A DNA stretch of 64,000 nucleotides from Candidatus Sumerlaeota bacterium (GCA_017161655.1 JADFCV010000004.1:75378-139377); one strand, 5' to 3'. Counted from the first letter of the stretch, positions 22,529 through 52,756 are shown. Notes: generated by a model not told the origin, from the letters alone. Numbers and translations: made by a program.

Positions 22529-22541
22529 CGTCGTCACCTCC

Positions 22542-23432
22542 TTATGCTCCCACCGCCGCCGGGGCAAACTGCTTGCGAAGCGCACACCGATCCCAGGTGA
22601 GATTGCGCTGCAGGCCAAGCGTCTTTGGATCTATTCCGAACGCCAACCCCATGAGCTGCGTGTAGTACATGCAGGGAATCGAGACGTCTTCGCCAAATCG
22701 CCGGACGATTTCCGGTTGATAAGAATCGAGATTGAAGTGGCACAGCGGGCACACACTCACGATGAGGTTAGCCCCCTGGCGCTTGGCTTCGCGAAGGATG
22801 GCAAAGACCAAACGTTGAGCCACTGAAGGCAGCGTGCCCATCTGGCTGCCTCCACAGCAGCGTGTCTTCAGGGGGAAGTGCACCGAACGCGCGCCAAGAG
22901 CTTCGCATAACTCGTCAATCTTAGTGGGGAAGTGCTGCTGGTCGAAATCCTTGTAAGGTCTCACGGTTTGGCAGCCATAGTATGCCGCCACTTTCACGTC
23001 TTTCAGAGGGAACTTGACGTGCTTCTTGATTTCGTCGAGCCCGACATCATGGACAAAGATGTCGAGCATGTGGCGCACGCGCACAGTGCCTTGGTAGTTT
23101 AGTCCTGCCTTCCGCAACGAGCCCTTCACACGATTCCCCACCGCCGGGTATTCTTCAATATAATGTTTCGTCTTATTAAGGACGAGGTAGCAGCCGCTGC
23201 ACGGTGTGGTCATCTGTGTGGCCCCCTCTTTTTCCGCCAGCGCGAGATTCCGGGCGGCCAGCGCGAGAGCATTGTGCTCATCCACAGACATGTACGCCGT
23301 GGCCCCGCAGCAGTTCCAGTCATCAATCTCTTTTAGCTCCACACCAAGCTCACGGATGACAGCCTGCGTACTCTCCTCGCAGGCACGTCCAGTGCCCAGC
23401 ACGGAGCAGCCGGGGAAGTAATGGTACCTCAT
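22542..23432 (-). CDS. hdrB: Heterodisulfide reductase subunit B (two CCG domains)
   Basis: CxxCG...CCG repeats (WNCCGATA; PCSGC; KTRCCGGS; CPLCHFNLD). Confidence 0.88.
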   Translation of the reverse strand: MRYHYFPGCSVLGTGRACEESTQAVIRELGVELKEIDDWNCCGATAYMSVDEHNALALAARNLALAEKEGATQMTTPCSGCYLVLNKTKHYIEEYPAVGNRVKGSLRKAGLNYQGTVRVRHMLDIFVHDVGLDEIKKHVKFPLKDVKVAAYYGCQTVRPYKDFDQQHFPTKIDELCEALGARSVHFPLKTRCCGGSQMGTLPSVAQRLVFAILREAKRQGANLIVSVCPLCHFNLDSYQPEIVRRFGEDVSIPCMYYTQLMGLAFGIDPKTLGLQRNLTWDRCALRKQFAPAAVGA

Positions 23433-24028
23433 TGTGTTCGCGCCTCCTTTCCATTGCCATTCTCAGGGTATTCCATGATTTCGCGAATACGCTGCGGATC
23501 TCGCACGCTCTCCGGACGCAAGGAGAAACGCCCACGCCGAATGAGCTCGATGCCAAGCCGCGCCATGCCCAGCATCTTGAGGGGATTGGTTAACAAGTTG
23601 AGGCGCGTTACGAGGTGGATCTCATTCACGCGGCCGCGTGATCGAACCATCTTGTAGAACTCGTTCGCCAGCACGACCATCGCAAAACGCCGCGGATAGG
23701 CTTTCTCGCGGATCGCCATCTGCTTGAGGGCGTACATGATGTCGGTCACCTTGATCTCGCGCGGACACTCCACCGTGCACGCATAGCACGATGAGCACAG
23801 CCAAATCGTGTTCGACGCCATGACCTCCTTCTTGAAGCCATAACGGACAAGGTTCATCACGCGCCGCGGTGTCATATCCATGTAGATACTCAGCGGGCAA
23901 ACGCCTGAGCACGTGCCGCACTGAATGCAGCTGTCCAGCTTTTCACAGCCAGGGATCTTCTTGATCGCGGCAGGAAAGCTTGGGTCGCAATCCGCCTGAT
24001 ATTTGATATGCCTCGTGGTGACATCCAT
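23429..24028 (-). CDS. hdrC: Heterodisulfide reductase subunit C (2x[4Fe-4S])
   Basis: CIQCGTCSGVCP and CSSCYACTVECP ferredoxin motifs. 4-bp overlap with hdrB. Confidence 0.85.
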   Translation of the reverse strand: MDVTTRHIKYQADCDPSFPAAIKKIPGCEKLDSCIQCGTCSGVCPLSIYMDMTPRRVMNLVRYGFKKEVMASNTIWLCSSCYACTVECPREIKVTDIMYALKQMAIREKAYPRRFAMVVLANEFYKMVRSRGRVNEIHLVTRLNLLTNPLKMLGMARLGIELIRRGRFSLRPESVRDPQRIREIMEYPENGNGKEARTQ

Positions 24029-24033
24029 GGTGG

Positions 24034-24630
24034 CTATTTGACCCTCCCTTCTTTGGGAATCGTTGGTCTGCCCAAATGCTCGTCAGCCGATGCATGTTCA
24101 CCTAACTGGTGAGCCACGGCCCCCACGTCCATTCGGGCTACTCTCTGGTCACGGAGATGTCGCGCTGAAGCCACGCAGCGCAGCTCTCCCGCGTCAGCAA
24201 TCGTGGCGCGTTCCAGACCATTGCGAACCATCTCGACGGTTTTGCTCCAAAAGCGCTGGAGCGGGCACGTCGCACTGTCTCCACAGATACGCAGTCCAAG
24301 CAGGCACGGAGCGCTGAAAGGCCGCCCAGTCACCGCTTCTGCGACTTCGAGCAATGGGATCGCACTTGCGGGGCGCGCCAGCGTAACTCCGCCGCGAAAA
24401 CCTCGTCGCGTCGTCACAAAACCTTTGCGTCGAAGACGATAAACAAGCTTCGCCAGATAGGCTCGGGGTATCCCAGTCGCACGGGCGATCTCTTCCACAT
24501 GCAAAGGTTGCCCGTCGGGATCCTCTAAAAGGCCCAGGGTCAGGATCGCATAAGCTGTCGTTTGGTTGAGAGCGAGCATGGTCTTGAGCGATTTGTGAAA
24601 ACTTTCACGATCTTTTGTGATGATTTTCAC
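24034..24630 (-). CDS. Rrf2 family transcriptional regulator with three clustered Cys (possible Fe-S sensing)
   Basis: Rrf2 N-terminal wHTH (YAILTLGLL...HVEEIARATGIPRAYLAKLVYRLRRKGFVTTRRG). Cys triad C-x6-C-x5-C. Stop is 5 nt before the hdrC start. The true start may be the internal Met at 24579. Confidence 0.75.
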   Translation of the reverse strand: MKIITKDRESFHKSLKTMLALNQTTAYAILTLGLLEDPDGQPLHVEEIARATGIPRAYLAKLVYRLRRKGFVTTRRGFRGGVTLARPASAIPLLEVAEAVTGRPFSAPCLLGLRICGDSATCPLQRFWSKTVEMVRNGLERATIADAGELRCVASARHLRDQRVARMDVGAVAHQLGEHASADEHLGRPTIPKEGRVK

Positions 24631-37189: not shown

Positions 37190-39867
37190 GCCCCTTCACT
37201 TCTCATGACCTGGAAGAAGAGGTCCACCGCGCGAGGATCAAAATGGCTTCCTGATTGCGTGCTGAGGTAAGAGAGCGTTTCGTCACGGGACCAGGCTTTG
37301 CGATAGGGGCGATCACTCATGAGCGCGTCCCATACATCCACCACCGCAAAGAGCCGAGCTGCCCACGGAATCGCTTCGCCTGCCAATCCACGCGGATAGC
37401 CCGTCCCATCCCACTTCTCATGGTGGCAATACGGGATATCGATAGCTGGCCTCAAAAACTCGATTTCCTCAAGCATTCGCTTAGCGAGCGTAGGATGTTG
37501 GCGCATGATTGCCCACTCCTCTTCTGTGAGCGGCCCCGGCTTACAAAGAATGGAATCTGGTATGCCGATTTTCCCGAGGTCATGCAGTAGCGCCCCACGC
37601 TCGATGTGCGGCAATTGCTCTTCGGGCACACCGCTAAGCCTTGCCATCTTGAGGGTGATCGACGTCACGCGCTGGGAATGACCTTCAGTTTCCCGATCAC
37701 GCATTTCGAGTGCCTTGACCCAGCCATGGAGCGTCGCCTCATACGCAAGCCGCAATTCTTCCCCCTGCCGAACAACTTTTTCAACGTGCCAGGCTAGTTC
37801 GAGGCCGATAGCGCCTTGTCCGGCCAGGGTCTCTAACAGTGCAAACCACTCGGATGAAGGATGAAGTACACGGCGCGAATAAAGCTCGAGCAACCCCAGA
37901 ACACGGTCGTGCGTCATGATCGGTTGCCCACAATACCACACAAATCCTTGCGAGAGCCAAAACTCCCCTAATGCGAATTCCTTCCCAGCATGTGGGATGC
38001 TCTCAAGAATCACGCGAGATTTCGTTTCGACAGCTCTATGCCGGATCCCTCCATGCAGCAATGGGAACTCCTCGGGCGGGAATTTTCGAAATCCCATACA
38101 GCAAAGCACTCTTGCGCGCCCCTCTTTGCTTATTGTCACGAACGCTGCGGCATCCACCCCGAGTCCGGCGATTGCTTCGCGCAAAACTTGATCCATCACC
38201 AGCTCAGGCCGAGGTTCCGAAATAATCTGCAAGTCAATGCGGCGAAGCCCTTCCAACTGAGCGAGGCGTTGTTCGGCAACTGCATAAGCAAGCTGCGCGG
38301 ACAACTCGGCTGCAATGAATGGAGAGACTTCTTCCAGCACCCTCTCACGCCAACCGACAAAGTGCCCGCTCTTGTTCGAGTAAAGCGTTACATTGCCCAG
38401 CACCCGGTCTTTGTAAATCAGGGGGATGGCGAGGCCACTGCGTATGTTAGACTGCTGGAGCCGTGGTCGCCAGGGCTCCACGGAGGGATCAACGGCAAAA
38501 TCAGGGAAATTGTGCGGTTGGCCGCTCACCACCGCTCGACCCGTTGGCCCTTTTGAGAGTGGAGTGTTATCCCACCGTACCTGAAGACCCTCAAAAAACG
38601 GGTGTTGTTCAGGCCAACACGTAAGCGGGCGAATGGTCCCGTCAATTTCCTTCACCCCAATCCAGGCAAGAGTCGCCTCCACGATCTCCGCGCATTTCCG
38701 CACGGCTGCCCGTGCCACACCCTCGGGCGTAAGCTCCCCTGCAAACGACAGGCCGAGCTCGCGCATCGTCCTATGTTGGCGGATTTGCTCCTTGAGTAGC
38801 TCTTCGTTGATGACCCGCCGTGTGATGTCGGTCCAAGTTACGAGCACCTCTACGGGGCGCTCGTCGTGCACCAGCGTGACACGAGCAAAATCCTGAATCC
38901 AAACCTCACGTCCCCATTTCGTGCGCACTCGATACTCAAGCTGAAGCTGCCCCTTCGCGAATACCTCTCTGGAGCGCTTGGTCACAATCTCTCGGTCTTC
39001 CGGATTCATGATCTCAGTCCACCACTGGGGCTGAAGCGCCTCTTCGACCGTGTAACCCAGCACCTGTTCAACGTTGGGACTGATCCAGACAGGAACGAAA
39101 TCACCGTAACTCTCGTCGTAGCGCAGCACATGAAGGATGATAGGCGAGCTTTCGAGCACGTGCTCCAGTCTGGCCACCGCCGCACCGAGTTGCTCCTCGC
39201 GCTCGATTAATTCGGTCTGCTCACAGATAGAACACGCCACATCCGCCTTCTGCGTGAGGAGAAGGGATATATCAAAATAGCGGCCGGCGAAGATTTCTGA
39301 TTGTCCCACGAACCTTTCTGGCTCGCCCGTGCGCCAAACCTTTTCAATGCGGCTGAGCCATTCCTTCTCGAAATCAGGCAATGCCTCGCTCAGCGTGCGG
39401 CCAAGTAATCCCTGCTTCTCATGGCCGAACAGTGCACAAGCGCCCAAGTTCGCAGTTCGGACGATGAAGTCGACGGGGCGGCGGTTTGCGTCCAGAACCG
39501 GACGCAGGATAAGAAGTGCAGCTGGAAGAGCGTCGAGATCACTTTCCCGCAGCGAAGGCTCATGGCGCAGCACAAGAAACCAATGATTCGTAGGAAGATC
39601 CCCTCCCGCAACGATAGCTCCCTCCAGCGCGGGGCTTTCAGGACTCCCTGGCGACTCCTCTTCAAGCCTCATCCATGTGACGCGTGGTAACTCTCCTCCG
39701 CTCCGCACCTTGCGAAGAAATTTCACGCACTCGACAGGAAACAGGTCACTTAGCTCGTACCCGACAAGTTCCTTCTCACAGCGGCCCAGCACCTCCTTCA
39801 CTTCGCCGTTGGCGCCGACGACTAGCTCGTCTTGCAATGTGAGAATAGCCACATAGGCAACGCTCAT
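37186..39867 (-). CDS. Multi-domain signalling protein: PAS and GAF sensor domains fused to a C-terminal HD-GYP phosphodiesterase
   Basis: C-terminal HD-GYP (HSQRV...LLHDLGKIGIP...HHEKWDGTGYP). Upstream PAS-like (WTDITRR) and GAF-like segments. 893 aa. Confidence 0.8.
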   Translation of the reverse strand: MSVAYVAILTLQDELVVGANGEVKEVLGRCEKELVGYELSDLFPVECVKFLRKVRSGGELPRVTWMRLEEESPGSPESPALEGAIVAGGDLPTNHWFLVLRHEPSLRESDLDALPAALLILRPVLDANRRPVDFIVRTANLGACALFGHEKQGLLGRTLSEALPDFEKEWLSRIEKVWRTGEPERFVGQSEIFAGRYFDISLLLTQKADVACSICEQTELIEREEQLGAAVARLEHVLESSPIILHVLRYDESYGDFVPVWISPNVEQVLGYTVEEALQPQWWTEIMNPEDREIVTKRSREVFAKGQLQLEYRVRTKWGREVWIQDFARVTLVHDERPVEVLVTWTDITRRVINEELLKEQIRQHRTMRELGLSFAGELTPEGVARAAVRKCAEIVEATLAWIGVKEIDGTIRPLTCWPEQHPFFEGLQVRWDNTPLSKGPTGRAVVSGQPHNFPDFAVDPSVEPWRPRLQQSNIRSGLAIPLIYKDRVLGNVTLYSNKSGHFVGWRERVLEEVSPFIAAELSAQLAYAVAEQRLAQLEGLRRIDLQIISEPRPELVMDQVLREAIAGLGVDAAAFVTISKEGRARVLCCMGFRKFPPEEFPLLHGGIRHRAVETKSRVILESIPHAGKEFALGEFWLSQGFVWYCGQPIMTHDRVLGLLELYSRRVLHPSSEWFALLETLAGQGAIGLELAWHVEKVVRQGEELRLAYEATLHGWVKALEMRDRETEGHSQRVTSITLKMARLSGVPEEQLPHIERGALLHDLGKIGIPDSILCKPGPLTEEEWAIMRQHPTLAKRMLEEIEFLRPAIDIPYCHHEKWDGTGYPRGLAGEAIPWAARLFAVVDVWDALMSDRPYRKAWSRDETLSYLSTQSGSHFDPRAVDLFFQVMRSEGA

Positions 39868-43135: not shown

Positions 43136-43677
43136 CCCGCCAGCTATGAAATCGGGAGTGCATCATTTTCCGAACCTCACCCAGAGGCAGAAAAACAGAC
43201 GCGTTTAGGGCGTGTAACGCTTGTTCTCTGACAAAGCGCGCAAAACCACAAGAAACTTTTCTTCTCACCTCATGATGGTCCTACAGAGAAATTCTGAGCC
43301 AACGACGCATCGCCTTACGGGGCGAAACGGCTCTCTCTCGGGCGTTTAAAATTTTGGGGCGCTGCCTCTCTCCTGAGGTAGTTCCAGGTACAGGGAGAAG
43401 ACTGGACGCGCTCTCAGCCCCGCCGGGAGTGCCTTAAGAAAACCTCTGACCTCGTGTTTCTCTCGTTTCCTGTCTGCCTTGACTTTGTTCCTGCCATTAG
43501 AGAAATTTGTCTCTAGGTTTGGTTGCGGGCGCGTCCCTTATCGCCCAACGCCCCGCTGCTCCTGCCACACTGTTGAATGAAACACGGTGGCGTGGGACCA
43601 GGCCACGAGCGAGACTAGCCCAGGGCATCGGAGCCAGTCTCGGTGGAGCGCAACCTCAACTCGAAAGGAGATTATCC

Positions 43678-44337
43678 ATGAACCTCCTCAAAGAAATAGC
43701 CGACCTTGTGGCGATGGGGCATCCCGATTCTCAGTCGAAGTATCCGCCTTCGCTGGCAGGTCAGCCCGGCGTTGCCGAGAAAGTGTCGCAGGCACTTTCC
43801 GAAGGCATCGAGCCTCAATGCATTCTCACCCAGGGGCTCATGGCCGGGATGGAAGTTGTTGGACGTCGTTTCGGTGCAGGAGAAATCTTTGTGCCGGAAG
43901 TATTGATGGCGTCGAAAGCCATGAAAGCTGGGGTAGAACTTCTCAAGCCGCACTTAGCAAGTGCCAGCGTTAGTCGGCGAGGGGTTTTCGTCCTCGGCAC
44001 TGTGCAGGGCGACGTCCATGACATCGGGAAGAATCTTGTGAAAATTCTCACCGAGGGTGCCGGCTGGGATGTGGTGGACCTGGGAACCTGTGTTCCGGCA
44101 GAGAAGTTCGTCGAAGCCGTGCGGCAGTATCGACCAGTTGCGGTAGGTCTCTCTGCACTTCTTACCACCACAATGCAAGAAATGCCTAAGGTGATCGAAT
44201 CCTTGCGGCAATCTGATCTAGACGTGCCGGTCATAGTTGGCGGTGCCCCCGTCAACGAATCCTTTGCGCGAAGCATAGGAGCAGAATATGGCCGGGATCC
44301 ACAAGCAGCTGTAGAATTCCTCAGCGCGCTAAATTAG
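43678..44337 (+). CDS. Standalone cobalamin (B12)-binding protein (B12-binding_2 cap plus Rossmann B12-binding domain)
   Basis: DxHxxG motif (GDVHDIGKN), SxL (LSALL), GG (IVGGAP). AAAGGAG ribosome-binding site before the ATG at 43678. 219 aa. Confidence 0.8.
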   Translation: MNLLKEIADLVAMGHPDSQSKYPPSLAGQPGVAEKVSQALSEGIEPQCILTQGLMAGMEVVGRRFGAGEIFVPEVLMASKAMKAGVELLKPHLASASVSRRGVFVLGTVQGDVHDIGKNLVKILTEGAGWDVVDLGTCVPAEKFVEAVRQYRPVAVGLSALLTTTMQEMPKVIESLRQSDLDVPVIVGGAPVNESFARSIGAEYGRDPQAAVEFLSALN

Positions 44338-44461: not shown

Positions 44462-45223
44462 ATGAGTGCGAAACGAGAAAAAATTCTCGAATCAAAGGCG
44501 AGAAAGAGCCAGGAAGAACTGATGGGAGCCGTCACACTCGAAAACATCACGAGCGACCCAAGAAGCCAGACGGTGCCCACGCCTTCTCTCCGGCGCCTCC
44601 CGCTCTATCTCCGGCTCCTCAGGGACTACCAAGCCCAGGGCCGCACGGTTGTCTCATGCACGCAACTCGCATCGGACCTGCGCTTCGACCCCACTCAGGT
44701 GCGAAAAGACCTCGCCCTCACGAAGGTCGGTGGTCGGCCCAAAGTTGGCTACCCCATTGCGGAGCTTATCGCTGCCATCGAAGACTTCCTCGGGTGGCGC
44801 CGGACTATCGAGGCGGTTCTTGTCGGAGTGGGCAGTCTGGGGACGGCACTCCTGGGTTACAACTTCTCGCTCTATGGTTTGAGCATTGTCGGAGCCTTCG
44901 ACTCTGCACCGGACAAGGTCGGGCAGGTTGTCCATGGCCGCGAAATCATGCCCATTGGCTACCTCACCAACTTTATCCGACAGCGCGGGATCCCGATGGG
45001 CATTCTCACTGTGCCCGCAAGCGCCGCGCAAAGCGTGGCGGAAATGATGGTGGCCGGCGGCGTAAAAGCGATTTGGAACTTCACAAGCGCCGCTTTGCAG
45101 TTACCTGACCACGTTCTGGTCGAACGTGCAGATTTCTCCGCCAGCCTGGCTGTGCTCACCCGTGCCCTTGCTCACGGTGCGCGATCCTTGGCCCCGACTA
45201 TCCCTAAAAAGGAGGTCACCTAG
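44462..45223 (+). CDS. rex: Redox-sensing transcriptional repressor Rex
   Basis: Rex wHTH (LPLYLRLLRDY) plus CoA/NAD-binding Rossmann (VLVGVGSLGTALLGY). Stop is 8 bp before hydC. Confidence 0.88.
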   Translation: MSAKREKILESKARKSQEELMGAVTLENITSDPRSQTVPTPSLRRLPLYLRLLRDYQAQGRTVVSCTQLASDLRFDPTQVRKDLALTKVGGRPKVGYPIAELIAAIEDFLGWRRTIEAVLVGVGSLGTALLGYNFSLYGLSIVGAFDSAPDKVGQVVHGREIMPIGYLTNFIRQRGIPMGILTVPASAAQSVAEMMVAGGVKAIWNFTSAALQLPDHVLVERADFSASLAVLTRALAHGARSLAPTIPKKEVT

Positions 45224-45231: not shown

Positions 45232-45750
45232 ATGGCTCCATGCCTTTGCGAAGCAACCCGCACATCGGATAAAGTCCGTTTTCAGCAAGTCTGCGAAATC
45301 CTCGAACGTTTCGAGCGCAACCCGAATCTCCTGGTACCCATCCTTCAGCAAGTTCAACAGGTTTATCGGTACCTTCCTCCCGAAATCCTTGAGTTTGTTG
45401 CGACCTCTCTAAATCTTCCCGCCGCCCATGTCTATGGGGTGGCCACGTTCTATGCTCATTTTACCCTCGAACCCAAAGGCAAGCACCTCATCAAAGTCTG
45501 CGACGGAACAGCGTGCCATGTGAAAGGATCCACCCAGATCCTTGAAGCCTTGCGCCAGCATCTTCAGCTAAAAGATTCGGCCAACACCACCGAGGATATG
45601 CAGTTCACCGTTGAAACGGTTTCGTGCCTTGGTGCGTGTGGTCTCGCCCCTGTCGTTGTCATCGACGACGACGTTCACGGGAATCTCTCTCCGGCCCAGG
45701 CAGTGCAACTCGTGGACCAAACCGCTTGCGAAAAGGAGGAAGAGCAATGA
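45232..45750 (+). CDS. hydC: [FeFe]-hydrogenase NuoE-like subunit (thioredoxin-like [2Fe-2S] ferredoxin)
   Basis: NuoE/HndA family Cys pattern (CDGTAC...CLGACGLAPVV). Confidence 0.85.
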   Translation: MAPCLCEATRTSDKVRFQQVCEILERFERNPNLLVPILQQVQQVYRYLPPEILEFVATSLNLPAAHVYGVATFYAHFTLEPKGKHLIKVCDGTACHVKGSTQILEALRQHLQLKDSANTTEDMQFTVETVSCLGACGLAPVVVIDDDVHGNLSPAQAVQLVDQTACEKEEEQ

Positions 45751-47678
45751 CGAGCACTGTCCAGGTCGATTTAGAAACTTTCGTCGAACAATATCAAAAG
45801 GCGGCCGCACAGATTCGACAGCGAATCATTGTCTGCGCTGGAACGGGGTGCGTCGCGAGTGGGTCGCTCAAAGTCTACGAAAGATTTGTTCGAGAGCTCC
45901 AGCTGTGGGGGCTCGACGTCGATGTTGAGCTACGCGTGGAAGCGAATGAAGAAGCGCCAGACCATGCGCAGCCGAGTCCGTCGAAGTACCTGGTCACTCG
46001 CAGCGGGTGCCAAGGGTTTTGCCAGATGGGACCGCTGGTCTCGATCCTTCCTCAAAAGGTCTTCTATGTCCGCGTCAAACCTGAAGACGTTCCTGAAATT
46101 GTCCAGAAAACGCTCCTCGGCGGCGAAACGGTGGACCGCCTACTCTATCAGGACCCAAAGACGAAGAAACGCGCGGTCAACACAGATCACATCGACTTTT
46201 ACAAAAAGCAACATCGCTTAGTGTTAGCCCAGTGCGGGGTTATTGATCCCGAAAACATCGATGAGTATCTTGGGATTGGCGGATACCAGGCTGCACGGCG
46301 CGCATTTACCCAAATGTCGCCCGAGCAGATCTGCAAAATCATCACCGACTCTGGTTTGCGCGGCCGTGGTGGCGGAGGCTTCCCCACCGGCGTGAAGTGG
46401 GATGCTGCACGCAAACAACCGGGCGACACAAAGTATGTGATTTGCAACGGTGACGAGGGCGACCCGGGAGCTTTCATGGACCGCAGCGTGATGGAGGGCA
46501 ACCCCCATGCCGTGCTCGAAGGGATGATGATTGCCGCCCGAGCAATTGGGGCTCACGCCGGCTACATCTACGTACGAGCCGAATATCCCCTCGCTGTGCA
46601 GCGCCTACGCCGAGCCATCCAGGATGCTTATGAGCTGGGTTTGCTCGGTGAGGATCTCTTCGAAACGGGTTACGCTTTCGACATTGAGCTTATGGAAGGT
46701 GCTGGGGCTTTCGTGTGCGGCGAGGAAACGGCGCTCATCGCCTCCATCGAGGGCCAGCGCGGTATGCCTAGACCCAAACCTCCTTTTCCAGCCCAAGCTG
46801 GACTCTGGGGGAAGCCGACCGTGATCAACAACGTGGAGACTCTTGCCACCGTTCCCCTTATCCTGCGCCATGGCCCCGAGAAATTCCGTGCCCTCGGCAC
46901 GCCTTCCAGCCCAGGGACCAAGACCTTTGCCCTCACCGGGCACGTGCCTAATACGGGGCTCATCGAGGTGCCTTTTGGTGCCACACTGCGCCAGATTATT
47001 TTCGATATTGGAGGAGGCGTCACTGACGCCAGAGGACGCATCCGCGAGGACGCTTTCAAGGCCGTGCAAATTGGCGGACCTTCGGGCGGATGTCTGACTC
47101 GCGAGCACCTCGACCTGCCGCTCGATTTCGATAGCCTCAAAAGCGTTGGGGCGATGGTGGGCTCCGGTGGACTCGTTGTCATGAATTCGCAAACCTGCAT
47201 GGTGCAGGTGGCGCGCTTCTTCATGCAATTCACTCAGAACGAAAGCTGTGGCAAATGCGTTCTCTGCCGTGAAGGCACAAAGCAGATGCTCGCCTTGCTG
47301 GACGAGATCATCGAAGGTCGCGGCACGCAGCAGACCCTCGAGTTGCTCGAAATAGTCGCTCGTACGGTCCAAAAGGGCTCGCTTTGCGGTCTCGGCAAGA
47401 CTGCGCCAAATCCGGTCCTCTCGACACTGCGTTACTTCCGGAAGGAATACGAGGCCCACATCGAGTTCAAACGCTGTCCCGCGGGGCAGTGCAAAGCGCT
47501 GGCTGTTCCCACGATCCTAGCAGAGCGTTGCCGTGGCTGCGGCCTCTGCATTCGTGCGTGCCCCGTCGGCGCCATCACAGGTGAGCGCAAAAAACCGCAT
47601 GTGATTGACCAAGATCGCTGCATACGCTGCGGGGCCTGCTTCACCGCCTGCAAACTCGACGCCATAACCTATGCCTAA
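45747..47678 (+). CDS. hydB: [FeFe]-hydrogenase NuoF-like subunit (NADH/FMN-binding, Fe-S)
   Basis: N-terminal [2Fe-2S] domain, FMN/NADH site (GRGGGGFPTGVKW), SLBB, NuoF 4Fe-4S, two C-terminal ferredoxin motifs. ATGA overlap with hydC. Confidence 0.9.
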   Translation: MTSTVQVDLETFVEQYQKAAAQIRQRIIVCAGTGCVASGSLKVYERFVRELQLWGLDVDVELRVEANEEAPDHAQPSPSKYLVTRSGCQGFCQMGPLVSILPQKVFYVRVKPEDVPEIVQKTLLGGETVDRLLYQDPKTKKRAVNTDHIDFYKKQHRLVLAQCGVIDPENIDEYLGIGGYQAARRAFTQMSPEQICKIITDSGLRGRGGGGFPTGVKWDAARKQPGDTKYVICNGDEGDPGAFMDRSVMEGNPHAVLEGMMIAARAIGAHAGYIYVRAEYPLAVQRLRRAIQDAYELGLLGEDLFETGYAFDIELMEGAGAFVCGEETALIASIEGQRGMPRPKPPFPAQAGLWGKPTVINNVETLATVPLILRHGPEKFRALGTPSSPGTKTFALTGHVPNTGLIEVPFGATLRQIIFDIGGGVTDARGRIREDAFKAVQIGGPSGGCLTREHLDLPLDFDSLKSVGAMVGSGGLVVMNSQTCMVQVARFFMQFTQNESCGKCVLCREGTKQMLALLDEIIEGRGTQQTLELLEIVARTVQKGSLCGLGKTAPNPVLSTLRYFRKEYEAHIEFKRCPAGQCKALAVPTILAERCRGCGLCIRACPVGAITGERKKPHVIDQDRCIRCGACFTACKLDAITYA

Positions 47679-47702: not shown

Positions 47703-49739
47703 ATGACTCCCCAAGTGCACCAAAACAAACTTCTCATAGACGGACGAGAAGTCACCTTTAGTCGCGAACGCAATCTGCTCGAAGTTTGCCGTAAGGCAGA
47801 CATCGACATCCCCACATTTTGCTATCACTCCCACCTCAGCATTTACGGAGCTTGCCGCTTGTGCCTCGTGGAAGTGGAGGGACTCGGCATTGTCACTTCT
47901 TGCACCACTGTGCCCAAGCCCGACATGCGCGTGCGAACCACCTCGCCGGAAATCCGCGAAATGCGTCGTGTCGCTGTCGAACTCTTGCTAGCCAGCCACG
48001 ACCGCGACTGTCCGACCTGCCCCAAAAACGCCACTTGTAAATTGCAATCCATAGCACGCCGCCTTGGCGTCCGCGAAGTGCGTTTCAAAACAACTGTGCA
48101 AGGCATGCCTCTGGATAAATCCTCTCCGGCTATCGAACGGAATCCAAACCGCTGTATCCTGTGCGGCGACTGTGTCCGCGTTTGTCGAGAGATTCAGTCC
48201 GTCGGAGCAATCGATTTTGCTTTCCGCGGCAGCAAGACTGTGGTCGCGCCTGCCCTTGGCCGTCCGCTTGGCGCCAGTGAGTGTGTGCATTGCGGCCAAT
48301 GTGCTGCTGTTTGCCCCACTGGCGCGATTGTACCCAAGAGTGAAATCGAAGAAGTGTGGCAGGCTTTGGCCGACCCTGAGAAAAAGGTCATTGCCCAAAT
48401 TGCACCCGCAGTGCGCGTCGCGATCGGTGAGGCGTTTGGGCTGCCTAGCGGCACCGTGGCCACAGGGCAAATCGCAGCCGCGCTGCGAAGGCTTGGCTTC
48501 GTCCAGGTTTACGACACCTCTTTTGCAGCTGATCTTACGGTAATCGAAGAGGGCACAGAGTTTCTCAACCGCAAGCAACGCGGCGGAAATCTGCCGATGT
48601 TCACATCCTGTTGTCCGGCGTGGGTGAAATTCGCTGAGCAATACTATCCCTCCCTGCTTGGGAATCTCAGTTCTTGCCGTTCCCCGCAGCAAATGTTTGG
48701 TTCTCTCGCGAAGGCAACCTTGCCGGCTGCGCTCGGCATCAAGCCCGAGCAGCTTGTTTGCGTCTCGATTATGCCTTGCACCGCGAAGAAGTTTGAGGCG
48801 CGCCGACCAGAATTCGAGCGAGACGGAATCCGGGACGTCGACTATGTTTTGACCACTCAAGAGCTCATTGCCATGATTGAGGCACAGGGGTTTGATCTCG
48901 CCAGCCTGCGTCCTGAGCCGATGGACCTTCCCTTTGGTCAAAAATCTGGAGCCGGAATCATCTTCGGAACGTCAGGCGGCGTCGCTGAGGCCGTCCTTCG
49001 CTACGTTCTCTCCAAGACTTATGCCACTGATCTTGCCCGCATCGAATTCCAGGAAGTGCGAGGTTCCGAAGGGACTCGTGAGGCGACGGTCGAAATTGGG
49101 GGCGCTCCCATCCGTATTGCTGTGGTGCATGGACTTGCTCAGGCGCGCCGCCTTGCGGAAAAAGTCATCGCTGGCGAAACTTCTTACGACCTTGTCGAAG
49201 TCATGGCATGTCCGATGGGCTGTGTGGGCGGGGCTGGTCAACCAGTTGCCACGCGCCGCAACACTCTGGCAAAGCGGGCGGCTGCACTCTATGACATTGA
49301 CCGGTGCGTCGAAATCCACACTCCCCAGCAGAATCCAGCGATCGTGGAGTGCTACCGCGACGTCCTCAAGGCTCCGGCTAGTCCGAAAGCGCACGAACTG
49401 CTGCACACTCACTACGTCAGCCGTCGACGTGTCATCGCCGAGCCACTAGAAATTGCATGCCCCAAAGAAGCGCGAATCGAGGTTACGGTTTGTGTGGGAA
49501 CAAACTGTTTTCTGCGCGGGAGCCGACAGCTTCTCGACGAAATTGTGCGAGCTGTACAGGCCCGTGGCTGGGCAGAAAAAGTAGCAGTCAAAGGAACGTT
49601 CTGCTTTGAGAATTGCCGCAAAGGGCCAAACGTGGCCGTGGGCAAAAAGCTGATCAGCGAGGCAACAGCAGATGTGGTTCTCCAGGAAATCGAGAACCAG
49701 CTGCCCCAAAAAGAAAACCGCGAACTGGCCGTGAGGTAG
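47703..49739 (+). CDS. hydA: [FeFe]-hydrogenase catalytic subunit HydA (group A3-type; C-terminal small-subunit-like and [2Fe-2S] domains)
   Basis: Canonical H-cluster motifs L1 FTSCCPAW, L2 MPCTAKKFE, L3 EVMACPMGCVGGAGQP. N-terminal [2Fe-2S] and 4Fe-4S domains. C-terminal NuoE-like [2Fe-2S] domain. Confidence 0.9.
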   Translation: MTPQVHQNKLLIDGREVTFSRERNLLEVCRKADIDIPTFCYHSHLSIYGACRLCLVEVEGLGIVTSCTTVPKPDMRVRTTSPEIREMRRVAVELLLASHDRDCPTCPKNATCKLQSIARRLGVREVRFKTTVQGMPLDKSSPAIERNPNRCILCGDCVRVCREIQSVGAIDFAFRGSKTVVAPALGRPLGASECVHCGQCAAVCPTGAIVPKSEIEEVWQALADPEKKVIAQIAPAVRVAIGEAFGLPSGTVATGQIAAALRRLGFVQVYDTSFAADLTVIEEGTEFLNRKQRGGNLPMFTSCCPAWVKFAEQYYPSLLGNLSSCRSPQQMFGSLAKATLPAALGIKPEQLVCVSIMPCTAKKFEARRPEFERDGIRDVDYVLTTQELIAMIEAQGFDLASLRPEPMDLPFGQKSGAGIIFGTSGGVAEAVLRYVLSKTYATDLARIEFQEVRGSEGTREATVEIGGAPIRIAVVHGLAQARRLAEKVIAGETSYDLVEVMACPMGCVGGAGQPVATRRNTLAKRAAALYDIDRCVEIHTPQQNPAIVECYRDVLKAPASPKAHELLHTHYVSRRRVIAEPLEIACPKEARIEVTVCVGTNCFLRGSRQLLDEIVRAVQARGWAEKVAVKGTFCFENCRKGPNVAVGKKLISEATADVVLQEIENQLPQKENRELAVR

Positions 49740-49745: not shown

Positions 49746-51530
49746 ATGGTCCCGCAAGCGCTCCAGAAACCGCCGCTCATATCCACAAATCGCGCCAAGT
49801 GTCGCGACTGTTACCGTTGCGTCCGGATGTGCCCCGTTAAGGCTATTCGGATGAAGGACGGCCAGGCACAGGTGGTGGAGGAGCGGTGCCTCTTCTGTGG
49901 CACCTGTGTGCGGGAGTGCCCTCAAAAGGCTAAAACCATTCGCGACGACACGACGTGGGCCATGGAGCTCCTGGCGCAACGCAAGAAGGTCGCCGCCAGC
50001 GTCGCTCCGACCTATCCAGCAGCCTTTGCAGAGCACGAGGTTCGTCGCCTTGCCAGCGCGCTGCGAAAGCTTGGCTTCGCCTACGTGGGCGAGACGTCTG
50101 TGGGTGCCGATGCTGTGGCTGTGGCCACATCCCGGTGGCTTGCAGAAAACCGCGAGCGCCAGCCGTTGGCTGTGACCAGTGCATGTCCTACCGCCATCCG
50201 CTACATCGAGCTTTACGCACCCGAATCTGTTAGCAGCGTCGTGCCTCTCGTCTCGCCCATGATTGCCCATGCGAAGCATTTGCGGCAGGAAATCGGCGCC
50301 GATGCTGTTGTGTTCATTGGCCCTTGTATCGCCAAGAAATTTGAAGCACAGCGGCCAGAGCATGCTGGACTTGTGGACTGCGTGCTCACCTTTGCGGAGT
50401 TGCGCTCCTGGCTCGAACGCGAAGGTATAGTCTTCGAGCAACTGGAAGAAAGTCGGTTTGATGAAGAAGGTTCCCCGCGCGGGCGTCGCTTTCCTTTGGC
50501 AGGTGGACACCTCCACGCGTCCGAACTTCCCAGCGACCTGCTTCAGCCCGAGGTCTGTGCCGTGACCGGTGTCGAGGCTTTACGGGAATGCTTATCGTTA
50601 GGCGTGCCAGAGCACCCAACAGTTGTTGAGCCTCTTTTCTGTGATGGCGGTTGCATAGGTGGTCCGGGAATCGGATGGGAGGAAAACCATTTTCGACGCA
50701 GACTGCGCGTGTTAGCCCATGCGGCTCGCGCTGCACGGACAAACGGAAAAACCCAAGTACCAGCGCCCACTCCGAAGCTGCTTCAGGGACTGAAAACCAC
50801 TTACCAGCCCCAACCTGTTGACCGCACTTCCCCCAGCGAGGACGCAATTCGCCGCGCCCTTGCCCAGATCGGAAAAATTGATCCACGTGATCAGCTCGAT
50901 TGCGGGGCGTGCGGTTATCGTTCCTGCCGCGAGAAAGCCATCGCCGTGGTACGCGGGCTTGCTGAGCCTGAAATGTGCATGCCTCGTATGCGACTGCTTG
51001 CTGAGCGGCGCATGGATCGCATTATGGAAACGAGCCCCAACGGGATCGTGATTCTCGATCACGAGTTGCGTATCATTGCCATGAATCCGGCGTTCCAAAA
51101 AATGTTCCTGTGTTCTCACCTCGTCCTCGGTCGGCACATCTCATATCTTACAGACGCAACCCCCTTCGAGCAATTGCTTGCCAGTCGTTGCGGCAAGCTG
51201 GAGCGAACAGCGTCGGAACCACGCTACGGCAGAATCTTCCACCAAATCGTTTACGCCCTGGAAGAAGACCAGCAAATCGTCGGGATCTTCGTTGATATCA
51301 CAGAAAGTAGCTTGAACCGCGAAAAGCTGGCGATTGTGCACCGAGAGGCTCTCGATCGTAGCAGGCAACTTCTTGAGCACCAAGTTCGTATGGCCCAGGA
51401 CATCACTCGACTCCTTGCCGAACACACGGCGCACGGCGAGGAGCTCGTGAAAAGCTTGCTTGAAGCAGCACTCGTCGAACCCCACGCCAGCGTTGCCTCA
51501 CACATGGCACTGGCACACAAAGATGCTTAG
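49746..51530 (+). CDS. hydS: HydS-like putative sensory [FeFe]-hydrogenase with C-terminal PAS domain
   Basis: N-terminal 2x[4Fe-4S] ferredoxin. H-domain with degenerate motifs TSACPTA (Cys to Ala), IGPCIAKKFEA (Met to Gly), EPLFCDGGCIGGPGI (Met to Leu). C-terminal PAS-like region. Confidence 0.8.
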   Translation: MVPQALQKPPLISTNRAKCRDCYRCVRMCPVKAIRMKDGQAQVVEERCLFCGTCVRECPQKAKTIRDDTTWAMELLAQRKKVAASVAPTYPAAFAEHEVRRLASALRKLGFAYVGETSVGADAVAVATSRWLAENRERQPLAVTSACPTAIRYIELYAPESVSSVVPLVSPMIAHAKHLRQEIGADAVVFIGPCIAKKFEAQRPEHAGLVDCVLTFAELRSWLEREGIVFEQLEESRFDEEGSPRGRRFPLAGGHLHASELPSDLLQPEVCAVTGVEALRECLSLGVPEHPTVVEPLFCDGGCIGGPGIGWEENHFRRRLRVLAHAARAARTNGKTQVPAPTPKLLQGLKTTYQPQPVDRTSPSEDAIRRALAQIGKIDPRDQLDCGACGYRSCREKAIAVVRGLAEPEMCMPRMRLLAERRMDRIMETSPNGIVILDHELRIIAMNPAFQKMFLCSHLVLGRHISYLTDATPFEQLLASRCGKLERTASEPRYGRIFHQIVYALEEDQQIVGIFVDITESSLNREKLAIVHREALDRSRQLLEHQVRMAQDITRLLAEHTAHGEELVKSLLEAALVEPHASVASHMALAHKDA

Positions 51531-52668
51531 TCTTTACGCAGAAATAGAGGCAGCCGATATCCCGAAAGTCGCCAACGGGATTAGCGGCGACGTCCTCGTA
51601 ACGTTGCGCTATCCCGAGTCCACCTACGTCATGTTAGCTGACGGGCTTAAGAGCGGTATCCACGCCAATCTCGCTGCTCAGTTTGCGTTGGCACGTCTGC
51701 AGGCAAAACTCGAGTGCGGCGCCCCACTCAGCCATGCACTTGCGGACATTCTAACCACTCTCGAGGAAAACCGGCGGAAACTTTCTCTATGGAGTGCGCT
51801 CAGCATTGCCCACATCTTGCCCTCAGGAGCGACGACGGTCTACGCATACGAGATGCCGGATCCTCTTGCTCTCATGCGACGCCGGCTTCACCCCGTTCCT
51901 GCAGAGCACCTCAATCTCGGTGGCGCACTCATTGCCAAATACAACCTGGAACTCAACGAAAACGACGGGCTTCTGCTTTTCTCCGATGGCGTCACACAAG
52001 CGGGTGTTGGAAATGGCCTGACCTGGGGGTGGGGCATCGATGGAATTCGCCGCGAAGGAGAGTTTTTCATCGCCAGCGATTCACTGCGCCGTCTGCCGCA
52101 TTTCCTCGTGCAGCGAGCCAGACAACTTTCAAGTGAGGAGCAATCCGATGATGCCACAGCGGTTTTGGTGCTCCTGCGGCGCGCCAAGCGCGTTGTCGTG
52201 TTCACGGGTCCACCTTCTGATCCCGCTAAGGACTCAGAAATTGTCCAGCAGTTCCTTTCATCTGAAGGCACAAAGATTGTTTGCGGAGGAACAACTGCCG
52301 GCATCGTGGCGCGTGTTCTGGGCACAGAGGCAATTGTCGATCCGAAATCGCTTCACCCATATTGCCCTCCTCGTCTCATTCTCGATGGTGTGGACTATGC
52401 CACCGAGGGAGCCGTGTGCTTAAATCAGCTCTACAATCTCCTCGATGCCGCCCCCACCGCCGTAGAAGAGCGCAACATCGTTGTTCAGCTTTACGAGGAA
52501 TTCATCCGTGCGGACCACATCACGTTCTTGGTGGGGAAATCAGAAAACCCGGCAACAGCTTCTCAGCCCTTTTTTCAAATGGGCATTCTCCGACGCCAGC
52601 AGATTGTCCCTCTCCTCGCGGACAAACTGCGCACGTTGGGGAAGCTCGTCACTATAGAATGGGTCTAA
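51523..52668 (+). CDS. PP2C-type (SpoIIE/RsbU-like) Ser/Thr phosphatase with uncharacterised ~180-aa C-terminal alpha/beta domain
   Basis: PPM motifs (GISGDVL...ADGLKSGIHANLAAQ...DGLLLFSDGV). 8-bp overlap with the hydS stop. C-terminal half (IVCGGTTAGIVARVLG) has no assignable family. Confidence 0.7.
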   Translation: MLSLYAEIEAADIPKVANGISGDVLVTLRYPESTYVMLADGLKSGIHANLAAQFALARLQAKLECGAPLSHALADILTTLEENRRKLSLWSALSIAHILPSGATTVYAYEMPDPLALMRRRLHPVPAEHLNLGGALIAKYNLELNENDGLLLFSDGVTQAGVGNGLTWGWGIDGIRREGEFFIASDSLRRLPHFLVQRARQLSSEEQSDDATAVLVLLRRAKRVVVFTGPPSDPAKDSEIVQQFLSSEGTKIVCGGTTAGIVARVLGTEAIVDPKSLHPYCPPRLILDGVDYATEGAVCLNQLYNLLDAAPTAVEERNIVVQLYEEFIRADHITFLVGKSENPATASQPFFQMGILRRQQIVPLLADKLRTLGKLVTIEWV

Positions 52669-52680: not shown

Positions 52681-52756
52681 TGGAGCTGGCGGTCGGATTC
52701 GAACCGACGACCTGCTGATTACAAGTCAGCTGCTCTGCCAGCTGAGCTACGCCAGC
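52681..52756 (-). tRNA. tRNA-Thr (anticodon UGU), CCA-encoded
   Basis: Cloverleaf folds by hand: 7-bp acceptor, GCTC/GAGC D-stem, anticodon loop CTTGTAA, TTCGAAT T-loop. 76 nt including CCA. Confidence 0.85.

What the first reader, a model, noticed from the sequence alone, without database searches (positions are those of the whole stretch)
51523..52668. PP2C phosphatase translationally coupled to HydS carries an unassigned C-terminal domain and has no obvious substrate in the cluster
The ORF start (ATGCTTAG) overlaps the hydS stop by 8 bp, which implies stoichiometric co-expression. Its N-terminal ~220 aa is a SpoIIE/RsbU-type PPM phosphatase. The C-terminal ~180 aa (VVVFTGPPSDP...IVCGGTTAGIVARVLGTEAIVDP...) resembles an alpha/beta nucleotide-binding-like fold but matches no motif I can name. 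Described HydS clusters include a histidine kinase or partner-switching proteins. Here the cluster is terminated by a tRNA-Thr on the opposite strand. The C-terminal domain may therefore be the missing partner or output module.
Basis: partly seen in the sequence, partly recalled or inferred. Interest (0 to 1): 0.55.

Follow-up and report, generated by a model that had tools for sequence, protein, structure and literature searches.

The report
Hydrogen-sensor phosphatase with an unnamed extra domain
This gene encodes the protein phosphatase that many anaerobic bacteria make together with their hydrogen-sensing hydrogenase, a known pairing, but its tail is a very well conserved, self-contained domain that no database names and that may matter for how the hydrogen signal is passed on.

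Summary
ATG 51523 overlaps the hydS stop (TAG 51528-51530) by 8 nt. The product is 381 aa, not 402. Residues 1-220 are a catalytically intact SpoIIE-type PP2C. Residues 221-381 match no Pfam or NCBIfam model and no PDB sequence.

The locus is ordinary as a system. The order rex-hydC-hydB-hydA-hydS-PP2C matches the published "phosphatase-linked" group C3 sensory [FeFe]-hydrogenase. In 74 of 77 evaluable loci from more than ten phyla, a HydS or PAS-only gene ends next to the phosphatase start, and 55 overlap it. No kinase, STAS or anti-sigma gene recurs nearby, so a missing substrate is normal for this family.

My best reading is a PAS-controlled output phosphatase whose tail is a regulatory ligand- or partner-binding module. 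Its function and the phosphatase's substrate remain unknown.

The parts
44462..45223 (+). rex (redox-sensing repressor), first gene of the operon
   Evidence: Pfam Put_DNA-bind_N plus CoA_binding. A rex gene is present in most related loci.
45232..45750 (+). hydC (NuoE-like [2Fe-2S] subunit)
   Evidence: Pfam 2Fe-2S_thioredx, E 1.2e-50.
45744..47678 (+). hydB (NuoF-like flavin/NADH subunit). The start is taken as ATG 45744, which overlaps the hydC stop.
   Evidence: Pfam Complex1_51K, NADH_4Fe-4S and Fer4.
47703..49739 (+). hydA, the catalytic [FeFe]-hydrogenase (group A3/A6 type). It carries an extra C-terminal thioredoxin-like [2Fe-2S] domain (residues 590-663, nt 49470-49691).
   Evidence: NCBIfam FeFe_hydrog_A6 at 738 bits, just under its curated cut-off of 765. 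Pfam Fe_hyd_lg_C, Fe_hyd_SSU and 2Fe-2S_thioredx. The TSCCP motif is intact.
49746..51530 (+). hydS, the putative sensory group C [FeFe]-hydrogenase. Parts: 2x[4Fe-4S] N-terminus; H-cluster domain (nt 49983-50666); C-terminal FeS motif (nt 50892-50984); PAS domain (nt 51009-51305); tail of about 74 aa (nt 51306-51527).
   Evidence: Pfam Fe_hyd_lg_C residues 80-307, FeS 383-413, PAS 422-520. The proton-relay Cys is replaced (TSACP in place of TSCCP, read from the translation).
51523..51530 (+). 8-nt overlap of the PP2C start with the hydS stop (ATGCTTAG)
   Evidence: The equivalent junction is conserved in 73 of 74 loci.
51523..52182 (+). PPM/PP2C (SpoIIE-type) catalytic domain, residues 1-220. 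It has no N-terminal regulatory domain.
52183..52665 (+). Unannotated C-terminal Rossmann-like domain ('CTD'), residues 221-381. Conserved motifs: T228-G-P-P231, D237, C254-G-G-T-T258, P282-P283, E295-G296, D331, G338, R358, K374.
52681..52756 (-). tRNA-Thr(TGT) on the opposite strand, marking the end of the operon
   Evidence: ARAGORN.

Best explanation
Identity. The gene encodes the HfsC-type PP2C phosphatase that is the conserved output partner of the PAS domain of the putative H2-sensing [FeFe]-hydrogenase HydS (group C3, 'phosphatase-linked').

What is shown.
- The protein is a catalytically intact, minimal PPM domain fused through a two-residue turn to an unannotated Rossmann-like domain of about 160 aa.
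- Its start codon overlaps or abuts the end of a HydS or PAS-only gene in nearly every genome examined.
- No kinase or substrate gene travels with it.

What is inferred.
- HydS and the phosphatase are made together and form a complex.
- The redox state of the H-cluster and the C-terminal [4Fe-4S] cluster changes the PAS domain and its tail.
- That change switches the Mn/Mg-dependent phospho-Ser/Thr hydrolase on or off.
- The phosphatase acts on a target encoded elsewhere, which feeds into control of the hydrogenase/Rex regulon.

The C-terminal domain. I read it as a cis-acting regulatory module, not as the substrate. Its invariant polar and glycine motifs sit at the C-terminal ends of the beta-strands, the usual ligand site of Rossmann-like folds. 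It therefore most likely binds a small phosphate-bearing or nucleotide-type ligand, giving a second metabolic input. Alternatively it binds a protein partner. Either way it would gate the adjoining catalytic domain.
For: Identity and domains:
- The metal-binding Asp motifs are conserved at 99-100%.

Operon and HydS features:
- Domain content of the operon genes.
- HydDB defines group C3 as phosphatase-linked (PMC5037454).

Conserved pairing:
- 74 of 77 evaluable loci have a HydS or PAS ORF ending at the phosphatase start; 55 overlap it.
- In Okeania (cyanobacteria, beside NiFe hox genes) and in an Isosphaeraceae genome, the upstream partner is a PAS-only protein of 167-175 aa, homologous to HydS residues 420-578. 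This points to PAS as the minimal partner.
- The CTD motifs are retained in those genomes.

C-terminal domain:
- Confident models, with a two-residue junction (strand 211-220, then strand 223-228).
- It is more conserved than the catalytic domain in 68 of 68 homologues (46% against 33% identity to the window).
- 1,094 clusters at 50% identity match its profile, and at least 590 species carry it.
- Its structural neighbours are nucleotide- or flavin-binding Rossmann-like domains.

Genetics from the literature:
- In T. saccharolyticum, the high-ethanol phenotype of the hfsB (sensor) deletion needs intact hfsC and hfsD. The authors took this to suggest a regulatory mechanism within the hfs operon (PMC5707799).
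Against: - Nothing here shows that HydS and the phosphatase actually bind each other.
- No substrate and no kinase were found within 10 kb on either side in about 80 loci, nor among the window ORFs I checked.
- No ligand is identified. The domain cannot be assigned to any superfamily: hhalign to methylglyoxal synthase gives 5-13% probability, and the best Foldseek hit has E 0.012.
- Stand-alone copies sit in CODH/NuoEF-type and hydrogenase operons where no PP2C was seen on the short contigs available. The domain's role is therefore not limited to gating a fused phosphatase.
- The canonical mechanism for sensor-controlled bacterial PPMs uses an N-terminal coiled-coil linker (PMC12143880). This protein lacks one.
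- I could not inspect model coordinates or predicted aligned error, so the interface between the two domains is unknown.
Confidence: 0.55

Rival explanations
1. Docking adaptor. The C-terminal domain is a protein-protein module that binds NuoE/NuoF-type (HydC/HydB) or ferredoxin-like subunits. The phosphatase would then be parked on the bifurcating hydrogenase and would regulate one of its subunits directly, after translation.
For: - Stand-alone copies lie between cooF and nuoE-nuoF-like genes (L092-L094).
- One lies directly upstream of nuoE/nuoF-like genes (L090).
- One overlaps by 4 nt the end of a gene with a hydrogenase small-subunit domain (L091).
- One follows a ferredoxin gene.
- In Bacillota and Thermotogota loci, hydC follows directly after the phosphatase gene.
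Against: - The invariant residues are glycine and polar loop motifs, which is typical of ligand sites and not of interfaces.
- The stand-alone examples are few and sit on short metagenomic contigs.
- The gene adjacency could be left over from a deletion within an ancestral hydS-PP2C-hydC arrangement.
- I know of no evidence that HydABC is phosphorylated (own knowledge).
Confidence: 0.2
2. Substrate or partner-switch module. The C-terminal domain is itself the phospho-acceptor, for example at the near-invariant T257/T258 at a helix N-terminus. That would be analogous to the phospho-Ser of STAS proteins. Its phosphorylation state would be the output.
For: - A stand-alone copy lies 137 nt downstream of a canonical GAF-PAS-PAS-GAF-PP2C protein (L089). 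That is the arrangement expected for a phosphatase and its substrate.
- The CGG(T/S)T motif is conserved in every architecture.
- M. tuberculosis Rv1364c is a solved precedent for a PP2C (RsbU) domain fused to a partner-switching (RsbW) domain in one chain (3ke6). That it also carries a STAS substrate domain is from my own knowledge.
Against: - No kinase recurs near about 80 loci.
- The domain is joined to the catalytic domain by only two residues, which leaves little freedom to reach the active site in cis.
- The L089 adjacency is a single contig.
Confidence: 0.1
3. Second enzyme. The C-terminal domain has its own catalytic activity, for example a kinase or phosphotransferase. The protein would then be bifunctional and need no separate kinase.
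For: - The domain is more conserved than the phosphatase domain.
- It has invariant Asp, Glu, Arg, Lys and Thr residues, plus Cys at 97%.
- No kinase is found in any operon.
Against: - It has no P-loop and no known kinase motif.
- No family match of any kind was found.
- Cys254 is replaced by Ala, Ser or Val in some members.
Confidence: 0.07
4. Artefact. The long ORF is a frameshifted fusion of two genes, or the tail is a structural extension with no function.
For: None beyond the lack of annotation.
Against: - The ORF is uninterrupted.
- The same architecture of about 381 aa appears in nearly all of 110 homologues and in the top 150 profile hits.
- The tail is the better-conserved half.
- The overlaps of different loci fall in both relative reading frames, so no conserved frameshift fusion with hydS exists.
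Confidence: 0.01

Closest known systems
HfsC of the Thermoanaerobacterium saccharolyticum hfsABCD operon; the phosphatase linked to group C3 'phosphatase-linked' sensory [FeFe]-hydrogenases (HydDB; R. albus HydS cluster)
   Same: - A serine/threonine phosphatase gene lies immediately after a PAS-containing HydS/HfsB gene, in an operon with a catalytic [FeFe]-hydrogenase, small [2Fe-2S] proteins and rex (PMC5037454, PMC5707799, PMC11837493).
- Clostridial relatives found here have the hfs-like order 2Fe2S-hydS-PP2C-2Fe2S-hydrogenase-rex.
   Different: - Here the module follows a trimeric hydCBA in a Sumerlaeota-like genome, and the [2Fe-2S] module is fused to the HydA C-terminus.
- I could not retrieve HfsC itself, so direct orthology, and the presence of the C-terminal domain in HfsC, were not tested.
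- The papers I read call HfsC only a 'serine phosphatase' and do not mention a second domain.
- For R. albus, an adjacent Ser/Thr kinase has been proposed as the relay (Zheng et al. 2014, as cited in PMC5707799). No such kinase recurs here.
RsbP / RsbU-type sensor-controlled PPM phosphatases of the general stress response
   Same: A PAS (or other sensor) module controls a SpoIIE-family PP2C. The order PAS, then helical segment, then PP2C is kept across the hydS/PP2C gene junction (PMC3183031, PMC12143880).
   Different: - The sensor and the phosphatase are separate polypeptides.
- The PPM domain starts at about residue 3, with no N-terminal coiled-coil linker.
- No RsbV/RsbW-type substrate-kinase pair is encoded nearby.
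- An extra C-terminal domain is present.
HoxBC-HoxJ-HoxA H2-sensing system of Ralstonia eutropha (regulatory [NiFe]-hydrogenase plus histidine kinase)
   Same: A low-activity hydrogenase serves as an H2 sensor, is coupled to a phospho-signalling enzyme, and controls hydrogenase expression (described in PMC5707799).
   Different: A different hydrogenase class, a histidine kinase/response regulator in place of a Ser/Thr phosphatase, and no sequence relationship.
Rossmann-like nucleotide-binding domains of Mo/W-bisPGD enzymes (FdhF, FwdB/FhcB, NuoG C-terminal part)
   Different: - Identity is only 9-15%, and no Pfam Molybdopterin match was found.
- Foldseek E-values are not significant.
Methylglyoxal synthase-like (MGS-like) phosphate-binding domains
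   Same: - Both have a beta1-alpha1-beta2 start.
- The motif KIVCGGTTAGIVARVLG resembles ATGTTGNLISRATG of E. coli MgsA. My typed MgsA sequence matched PDB 1b93 over its full length at E 6.7e-102.
- Foldseek gives probability 0.92 to T. maritima MGS.
   Different: - hhalign probability is only 5.5% against the single sequence and 13% against an enterobacterial profile.
- TM is 0.40, and there is no Pfam PF02142 match.
- Homology is unproven.

Membership tests
PPM / PP2C phosphatases, SpoIIE subfamily (PF07228) | Sequence match to the family model above the curated threshold | tested here: met
   PF07228 matches residues 33-216 at 40.8 bits against a cut-off of 25, E 2.9e-10.
PPM / PP2C phosphatases, SpoIIE subfamily (PF07228) | PPM beta-sandwich fold | tested here: met
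PPM / PP2C phosphatases, SpoIIE subfamily (PF07228) | Conserved metal-coordinating aspartates (GD, DGxG, (S/T)DG and DD motifs) | tested here: met
   G22 and D23 are 99% conserved, and D40-G41, D155-G156 and D209-D210 are invariant, in 69 family members. Mapping them to the canonical motifs is by motif position, not by superposition.
PPM / PP2C phosphatases, SpoIIE subfamily (PF07228) | Mn2+/Mg2+-dependent phospho-Ser/Thr hydrolysis | not testable with these tools
   This needs an enzyme assay.
Group C3 'phosphatase-linked' sensory [FeFe]-hydrogenase module (HydS plus phosphatase) | HydS with an H-cluster domain, a C-terminal FeS motif and a PAS domain | tested here: met
   Fe_hyd_lg_C residues 80-307, FeS 383-413, PAS 422-520 in the upstream gene.
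Group C3 'phosphatase-linked' sensory [FeFe]-hydrogenase module (HydS plus phosphatase) | Loss of the proton-relay cysteine near the H-cluster (TSCCP becomes TSxCP) | tested here: met
   HydS reads TSACP, whereas HydA in the same operon reads TSCCP (translations). This trait of sensory enzymes is noted in PMC8924675.
Group C3 'phosphatase-linked' sensory [FeFe]-hydrogenase module (HydS plus phosphatase) | Co-transcription or adjacency with a Ser/Thr phosphatase | tested here: met
   8-nt overlap in the window. The same junction occurs in 73 of 74 related loci. The class is defined in PMC5037454.
Group C3 'phosphatase-linked' sensory [FeFe]-hydrogenase module (HydS plus phosphatase) | Assignment of the HydS sequence to subgroup C3 by the HydDB classifier or by phylogeny | not tested
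   No classifier or reference set was available here.
Group C3 'phosphatase-linked' sensory [FeFe]-hydrogenase module (HydS plus phosphatase) | H2-dependent signalling | not testable with these tools
   Still putative for the whole class. The signal transduction mechanism is described as unknown in PMC11376134.
Partner-switching PP2C systems (RsbU/RsbP/SpoIIE with STAS substrate and anti-sigma kinase) | STAS-domain substrate and RsbW/SpoIIAB-type kinase encoded with the phosphatase | tested here: not met
   Clustering all ORFs within 10 kb on either side in about 80 loci gave no recurrent kinase, STAS or anti-sigma family. None was found among the window ORFs I checked. Genome-wide absence could not be tested.
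Partner-switching PP2C systems (RsbU/RsbP/SpoIIE with STAS substrate and anti-sigma kinase) | N-terminal regulatory domain joined to the PPM domain by a coiled-coil linker | tested here: not met
   The first PPM strand starts at residue 4. The family alignment has no N-terminal extension. The mechanism is described in PMC12143880.
MGS-like domain (PF02142), considered for the C-terminal domain | Profile or HMM-HMM match to the family | tested here: inconclusive
   No Pfam hit. hhalign probability is 5.5% and 13%, aligning only the GTT motif region. The MGS profile I could build was shallow, made of enterobacterial sequences only.
MGS-like domain (PF02142), considered for the C-terminal domain | Fold match | tested here: inconclusive
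Mo/W-bisPGD oxidoreductase nucleotide-binding domain, considered for the C-terminal domain | Sequence-family membership (Pfam Molybdopterin / Molydop_binding) | tested here: not met

The most novel reading that the evidence does not exclude
The C-terminal domain is a previously undescribed, autonomous domain family associated with redox enzyme complexes, and it is the real transducer of the [FeFe]-hydrogenase H2 sensor. One version has it binding a redox nucleotide or flavin, so that the phosphatase integrates H2 (through HydS-PAS) with cellular redox state. The other has it docking onto NuoE/NuoF-type modules, so that electron-bifurcating hydrogenases and CODH-linked complexes are regulated directly by reversible phosphorylation or by a partner-switch-like small protein.
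Probability: 0.2. Interest if true: 0.8.

Novelty: new member of a known kind. Interest (0 to 1): 0.5.

Why it matters
How group C 'sensory' [FeFe]-hydrogenases pass on their signal is an acknowledged open question. [quoted passage not shown]

This analysis shows three things about the only conserved signalling enzyme next to HydS:
- It is tied to the PAS module, not to the H-cluster.
- It travels without any kinase or substrate gene.
- It carries a second, unnamed domain that is more conserved than its catalytic domain and that can live on its own in hydrogenase and CO-dehydrogenase operons.

That gives experimenters a concrete handle. They can test the isolated domain for ligands, use it as bait for partners, and mutate its invariant loops. 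Deleting the sensor gene hfsB raises ethanol yield in several thermophilic anaerobes (PMC5707799), so the results also bear on engineering of fermentative H2 and ethanol metabolism.

The locus itself is an ordinary member of a widespread system.

Tried and rejected
1. Homology of the C-terminal domain to methylglyoxal synthase-like domains. The GTT motif and Foldseek probability (0.92) looked promising. hhalign gave only 5.5-13% probability. The database search meant to build an MGS profile returned only near-identical enterobacterial proteins, so the test is weak and inconclusive.

2. A PDB profile hit to the eIF2-alpha C-terminal domain. The summed whole-sequence E is 4.4e-05, because that chain holds the same motif twice. 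Each 43-residue stretch scores E of about 1 on its own. I treated it as chance.

3. Close structural homologues. Foldseek against the PDB found nothing below E 0.01. The AFDB50 library was not available.

4. Kinase, STAS or anti-sigma partners. I clustered neighbourhood ORFs in about 80 loci and ran Pfam on candidate regulators in the window. These turned out to be a PAS-GAF-HD protein, a YfhO-like membrane protein and a B12-binding protein. None qualified.

5. Fusion of HydS and the phosphatase by programmed frameshift. Overlap lengths fall in both relative frames, and no fused protein appears among the homologues, all of which are 435 aa or shorter.

6. Rex operator sites near the operon. 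The consensus TTGTGAAN6TTCACAA with up to 3 mismatches gave 3 hits in the window, at chance level and none near 44-45 kb.

7. Short profile hits as stand-alone domains. Most are contig-edge fragments of the fused protein. Only P0186, P0199, P0236, P0239 and P0255 were confirmed by context as stand-alone. P0377 and P0379 look complete from their N-termini only.

8. One literature search was badly specified and uninformative. The R. albus paper (Zheng et al. 2014) is not held in the library.
Full report
**Observation.** The sequence around 51520 reads AAG ATG CTT AG. ATG 51523 starts an uninterrupted ORF that ends at TAA 52666-52668. The upstream hydS ORF (49746-51530) stops at TAG 51528-51530, so the two genes overlap by 8 nt. 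A tRNA-Thr(TGT) lies 12 nt downstream on the opposite strand. The mechanical ORF list gives 402 aa from TTG 51460, which lies inside hydS. The family alignment and an identical 381-aa database entry support ATG 51523. Its length and residue numbers are about 21 residues too long.

**The operon.** Pfam and NCBIfam identify the genes in this order:
- rex (44462-45223)
- hydC, NuoE-like (45232-45750)
- hydB, NuoF-like (45744-47678)
- hydA, close to the NADH-dependent group A6 model at 738 bits (just under its cut-off of 765), with an added C-terminal thioredoxin-like [2Fe-2S] domain (47703-49739)
- hydS, which has 2x[4Fe-4S], an H-cluster domain, a C-terminal FeS motif and a PAS domain (49746-51530)

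HydS reads TSACP where HydA reads TSCCP. Loss of that cysteine is characteristic of the putative sensory enzymes (PMC8924675). HydDB already defines group C3 as 'phosphatase-linked (putative)' (PMC5037454). The pairing of HydS with a phosphatase is therefore known.

**The C-terminal half (residues 221-381).**
- It has no Pfam hit at E up to 10, either for the window sequence or for any consistent family among 34 members scanned individually.
- NCBIfam gives nothing.
- A profile search of PDB sequences finds only a repeated 43-residue motif in eIF2-alpha, which I regard as chance.
- Modelled alone it folds confidently (pLDDT 90.5) as an alternating beta/alpha domain.
- Foldseek against the PDB finds nothing below E 0.01, and TM scores are at most 0.49.
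- The motif KIVCGGTTAGIVARVLG resembles the phosphate-binding ATGTTGNLISRATG of methylglyoxal synthase. HMM-HMM comparison gives only 5-13% probability.

The domain cannot be placed in a superfamily with the tools I had.

**How common and how constrained it is.**
- 110 homologues were found, and nearly all are about 381 aa at 93-100% coverage. They come from Sumerlaeota, Ignavibacteriota, Planctomycetota, Elusimicrobiota, Bacillota and others.
- A profile of the C-terminal domain alone finds 1,094 clusters (at 50% identity) with E at or below 1e-3. The top 150 are almost all the fused form of about 380 aa.
They include Thermotogota, Fibrobacterota, Spirochaetota and Cyanobacteriota.
- The C-terminal domain is more conserved than the catalytic domain in all 68 comparisons (mean 46% against 33% identity to the window).
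- Its invariant or near-invariant residues are T228-G-P-P231, D237, C254-G-G-T-T258, P282-P283, E295-G296, D331, G338, R358 and K374.
- Most of these motifs (TGPP, CGGTT, E295-G296, G338) fall at the C-terminal ends of strands or at helix N-termini in the model. That is where Rossmann-like folds bind ligands.
- Only residues 221-222 separate the last PP2C strand (211-220) from the first strand of the domain (223-228). The two halves are therefore likely to form one rigid unit.

**Genomic context.** I called ORFs in 88 related loci and annotated them against the window's operon proteins.
- In 74 of 77 evaluable cases, a HydS or PAS-only ORF ends within 400 nt of the phosphatase start. Fifty-five overlap it (modes at 4 and 25 nt), 18 leave 0-25 nt, and one leaves 68 nt.
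- Overlaps occur in both relative frames, so no frameshift fusion is conserved.
- rex, hydCBA and small thioredoxin-like [2Fe-2S] proteins are the only other recurrent neighbours.
- Clustering all remaining ORFs found no recurrent Ser/Thr kinase, STAS or anti-sigma family.
- Nothing of that kind was found among the regulators I checked in the window.

The absence of a substrate is therefore the rule for this family, not a peculiarity of this locus.

**Two informative exceptions.**
- In two Okeania (cyanobacterial) genomes, the phosphatase lies downstream of an 88-aa [2Fe-2S] protein and a 175-aa PAS-only protein homologous to HydS residues 420-562. The group sits beside the NiFe hox genes.
- In an Isosphaeraceae genome, a 167-aa PAS-only gene overlaps the phosphatase start by 4 nt.

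All the C-terminal domain motifs are kept in these genomes. The minimal conserved couple is therefore PAS plus phosphatase, not H-cluster plus phosphatase.

**Stand-alone copies.** Among short profile hits, most are contig-edge fragments. Five are confirmed by context as separate small proteins of 161-181 aa:
- One lies 137 nt downstream of a 930-aa GAF-PAS-PAS-GAF-PP2C protein of the canonical type (L089).
- One lies between cooS-cooF and nuoE-nuoF-like genes, followed by an acetyl-CoA synthase gene. It is seen on three contigs, L092-L094.
- One lies directly upstream of nuoE- and nuoF-like genes (L090).
- One overlaps by 4 nt the end of a gene that terminates in a hydrogenase small-subunit domain (L091).
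- One follows a small ferredoxin gene.

The domain is therefore autonomous, and it is not restricted to regulating a fused phosphatase. These examples are few and come from short metagenomic contigs, so I treat them as leads.

**Mechanism.**
- *Shown:* the domain content, the conserved tight gene junction with PAS, and the absence of kinase or substrate genes nearby.
- *Inferred:* HydS and the phosphatase are co-produced and form a complex. The redox state of the H-cluster and the C-terminal cluster is relayed through the PAS domain and tail to the phosphatase. The phosphatase acts on a target encoded elsewhere.

Published genetics fit a sensor-upstream-of-phosphatase order. In T. saccharolyticum, deleting hfsB (the sensor) raises ethanol yield and adhE and rex expression. 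Deleting the whole hfsABCD operon does not give the high-ethanol phenotype, and the authors concluded that intact hfsC and hfsD are needed for it (PMC5707799).

For the C-terminal domain I favour a cis-acting regulatory module that binds a small phosphate-bearing or nucleotide-type ligand, or a protein partner. The reasons are its rigid attachment, its loop-centred invariant residues and its Rossmann-like neighbours. I rank three alternatives lower:
- a docking adaptor for NuoE/NuoF-type or ferredoxin-like subunits
- a second enzyme

None of these is excluded.

**Comparison and novelty.** The system works like a PAS-controlled PP2C such as RsbP, but it is split across two genes. It fails two defining features of partner-switching systems: it has no N-terminal linker, and no STAS/kinase genes accompany it. 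As a locus it is another member of the known group C3 HydS-phosphatase kind. The papers I could read did not describe the second domain of that phosphatase, its exceptional conservation, its PAS-only and NiFe-associated variants, or its stand-alone copies. Reviews state that HydS signal transduction is unknown (PMC11376134). I score interest as moderate. The locus is ordinary, but the family-wide unnamed domain is a concrete and testable handle on an open question.

Noticed in passing
L084 7893-10504 and L088 7981-10504 (Okeania sp., Cyanobacteriota); L076 8832-10501 (Isosphaeraceae): The phosphatase with its C-terminal domain also occurs without any [FeFe]-hydrogenase. In Okeania it lies downstream of an 88-aa thioredoxin-like [2Fe-2S] protein and a 175-aa PAS-only protein, right beside the NiFe hoxF/U/Y/H genes. 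In Isosphaeraceae a 167-aa PAS-only gene overlaps its start by 4 nt.
   Followed up: partly
L089 4785-5309; L090 3204-3722; L091 138-635; L092 2-487, L093 519-1004, L094 2243-2728: Stand-alone copies of the C-terminal domain (161-181 aa) occur in four settings: downstream of a GAF-PAS-PAS-GAF-PP2C protein; between cooS-cooF and nuoE/nuoF-like genes next to acetyl-CoA synthase; upstream of nuoE/nuoF-like genes; and overlapping the end of a gene with a hydrogenase small-subunit domain.
   Followed up: partly
window 49470-49691 (HydA residues 590-663): The catalytic HydA carries a C-terminal thioredoxin-like [2Fe-2S] domain directly before hydS. In many other loci a separate 80-97-aa [2Fe-2S] protein (HfsA-like) occupies that position. 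The [2Fe-2S] module thus seems to be a third conserved element of the sensor unit.
   Followed up: partly
window 16976-24630, minus strand: A second hydrogen-metabolism cluster contains an Rrf2-family regulator, HdrC-like, HdrB-like (CCG domains) and HdrA-like flavoprotein genes, NiFe hydrogenase small and large subunits, and a HycI-type maturation protease. It is an Mvh/Hdr-like set.
   Followed up: partly
window 37186-39867, minus strand: An 893-aa PAS-PAS-GAF-GAF-HD(HD_5, HD-GYP-like) signalling protein lies about 4.5 kb upstream of the hyd operon. I found no evidence that links it to the operon.
   Followed up: no
window 43507-44337, plus strand: A B12-binding-domain protein (B12-binding_2 plus B12-binding) lies directly upstream of rex. 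The same arrangement is conserved in the two Sumerlaeaceae relatives (L009, L010).
   Followed up: no
window 51997-52029 (residues 159-169): The PP2C domain has a family-specific glycine-rich insertion after the SDG motif, consensus TQAGxGxGxxxGW(G), with Q159, A160, G161, G163 and G169 at 93-100% conservation. It lies in a loop region after the SDG metal-binding motif. By analogy with the PP2C 'flap' (my inference) it could shape substrate choice.
   Followed up: no
L031 7482-9332 (Candidatus Wallbacteria): A 616-aa gene of unknown type is inserted between hydS and the phosphatase and overlaps the phosphatase start by 4 nt. It is the only locus with an intervening gene.
   Followed up: no
L017 and L019 (Ozemobacteraceae / Riflebacteria): Two tandem hydS-phosphatase pairs lie in the same 10-kb stretch, which suggests duplication of the sensor module.
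   Followed up: no
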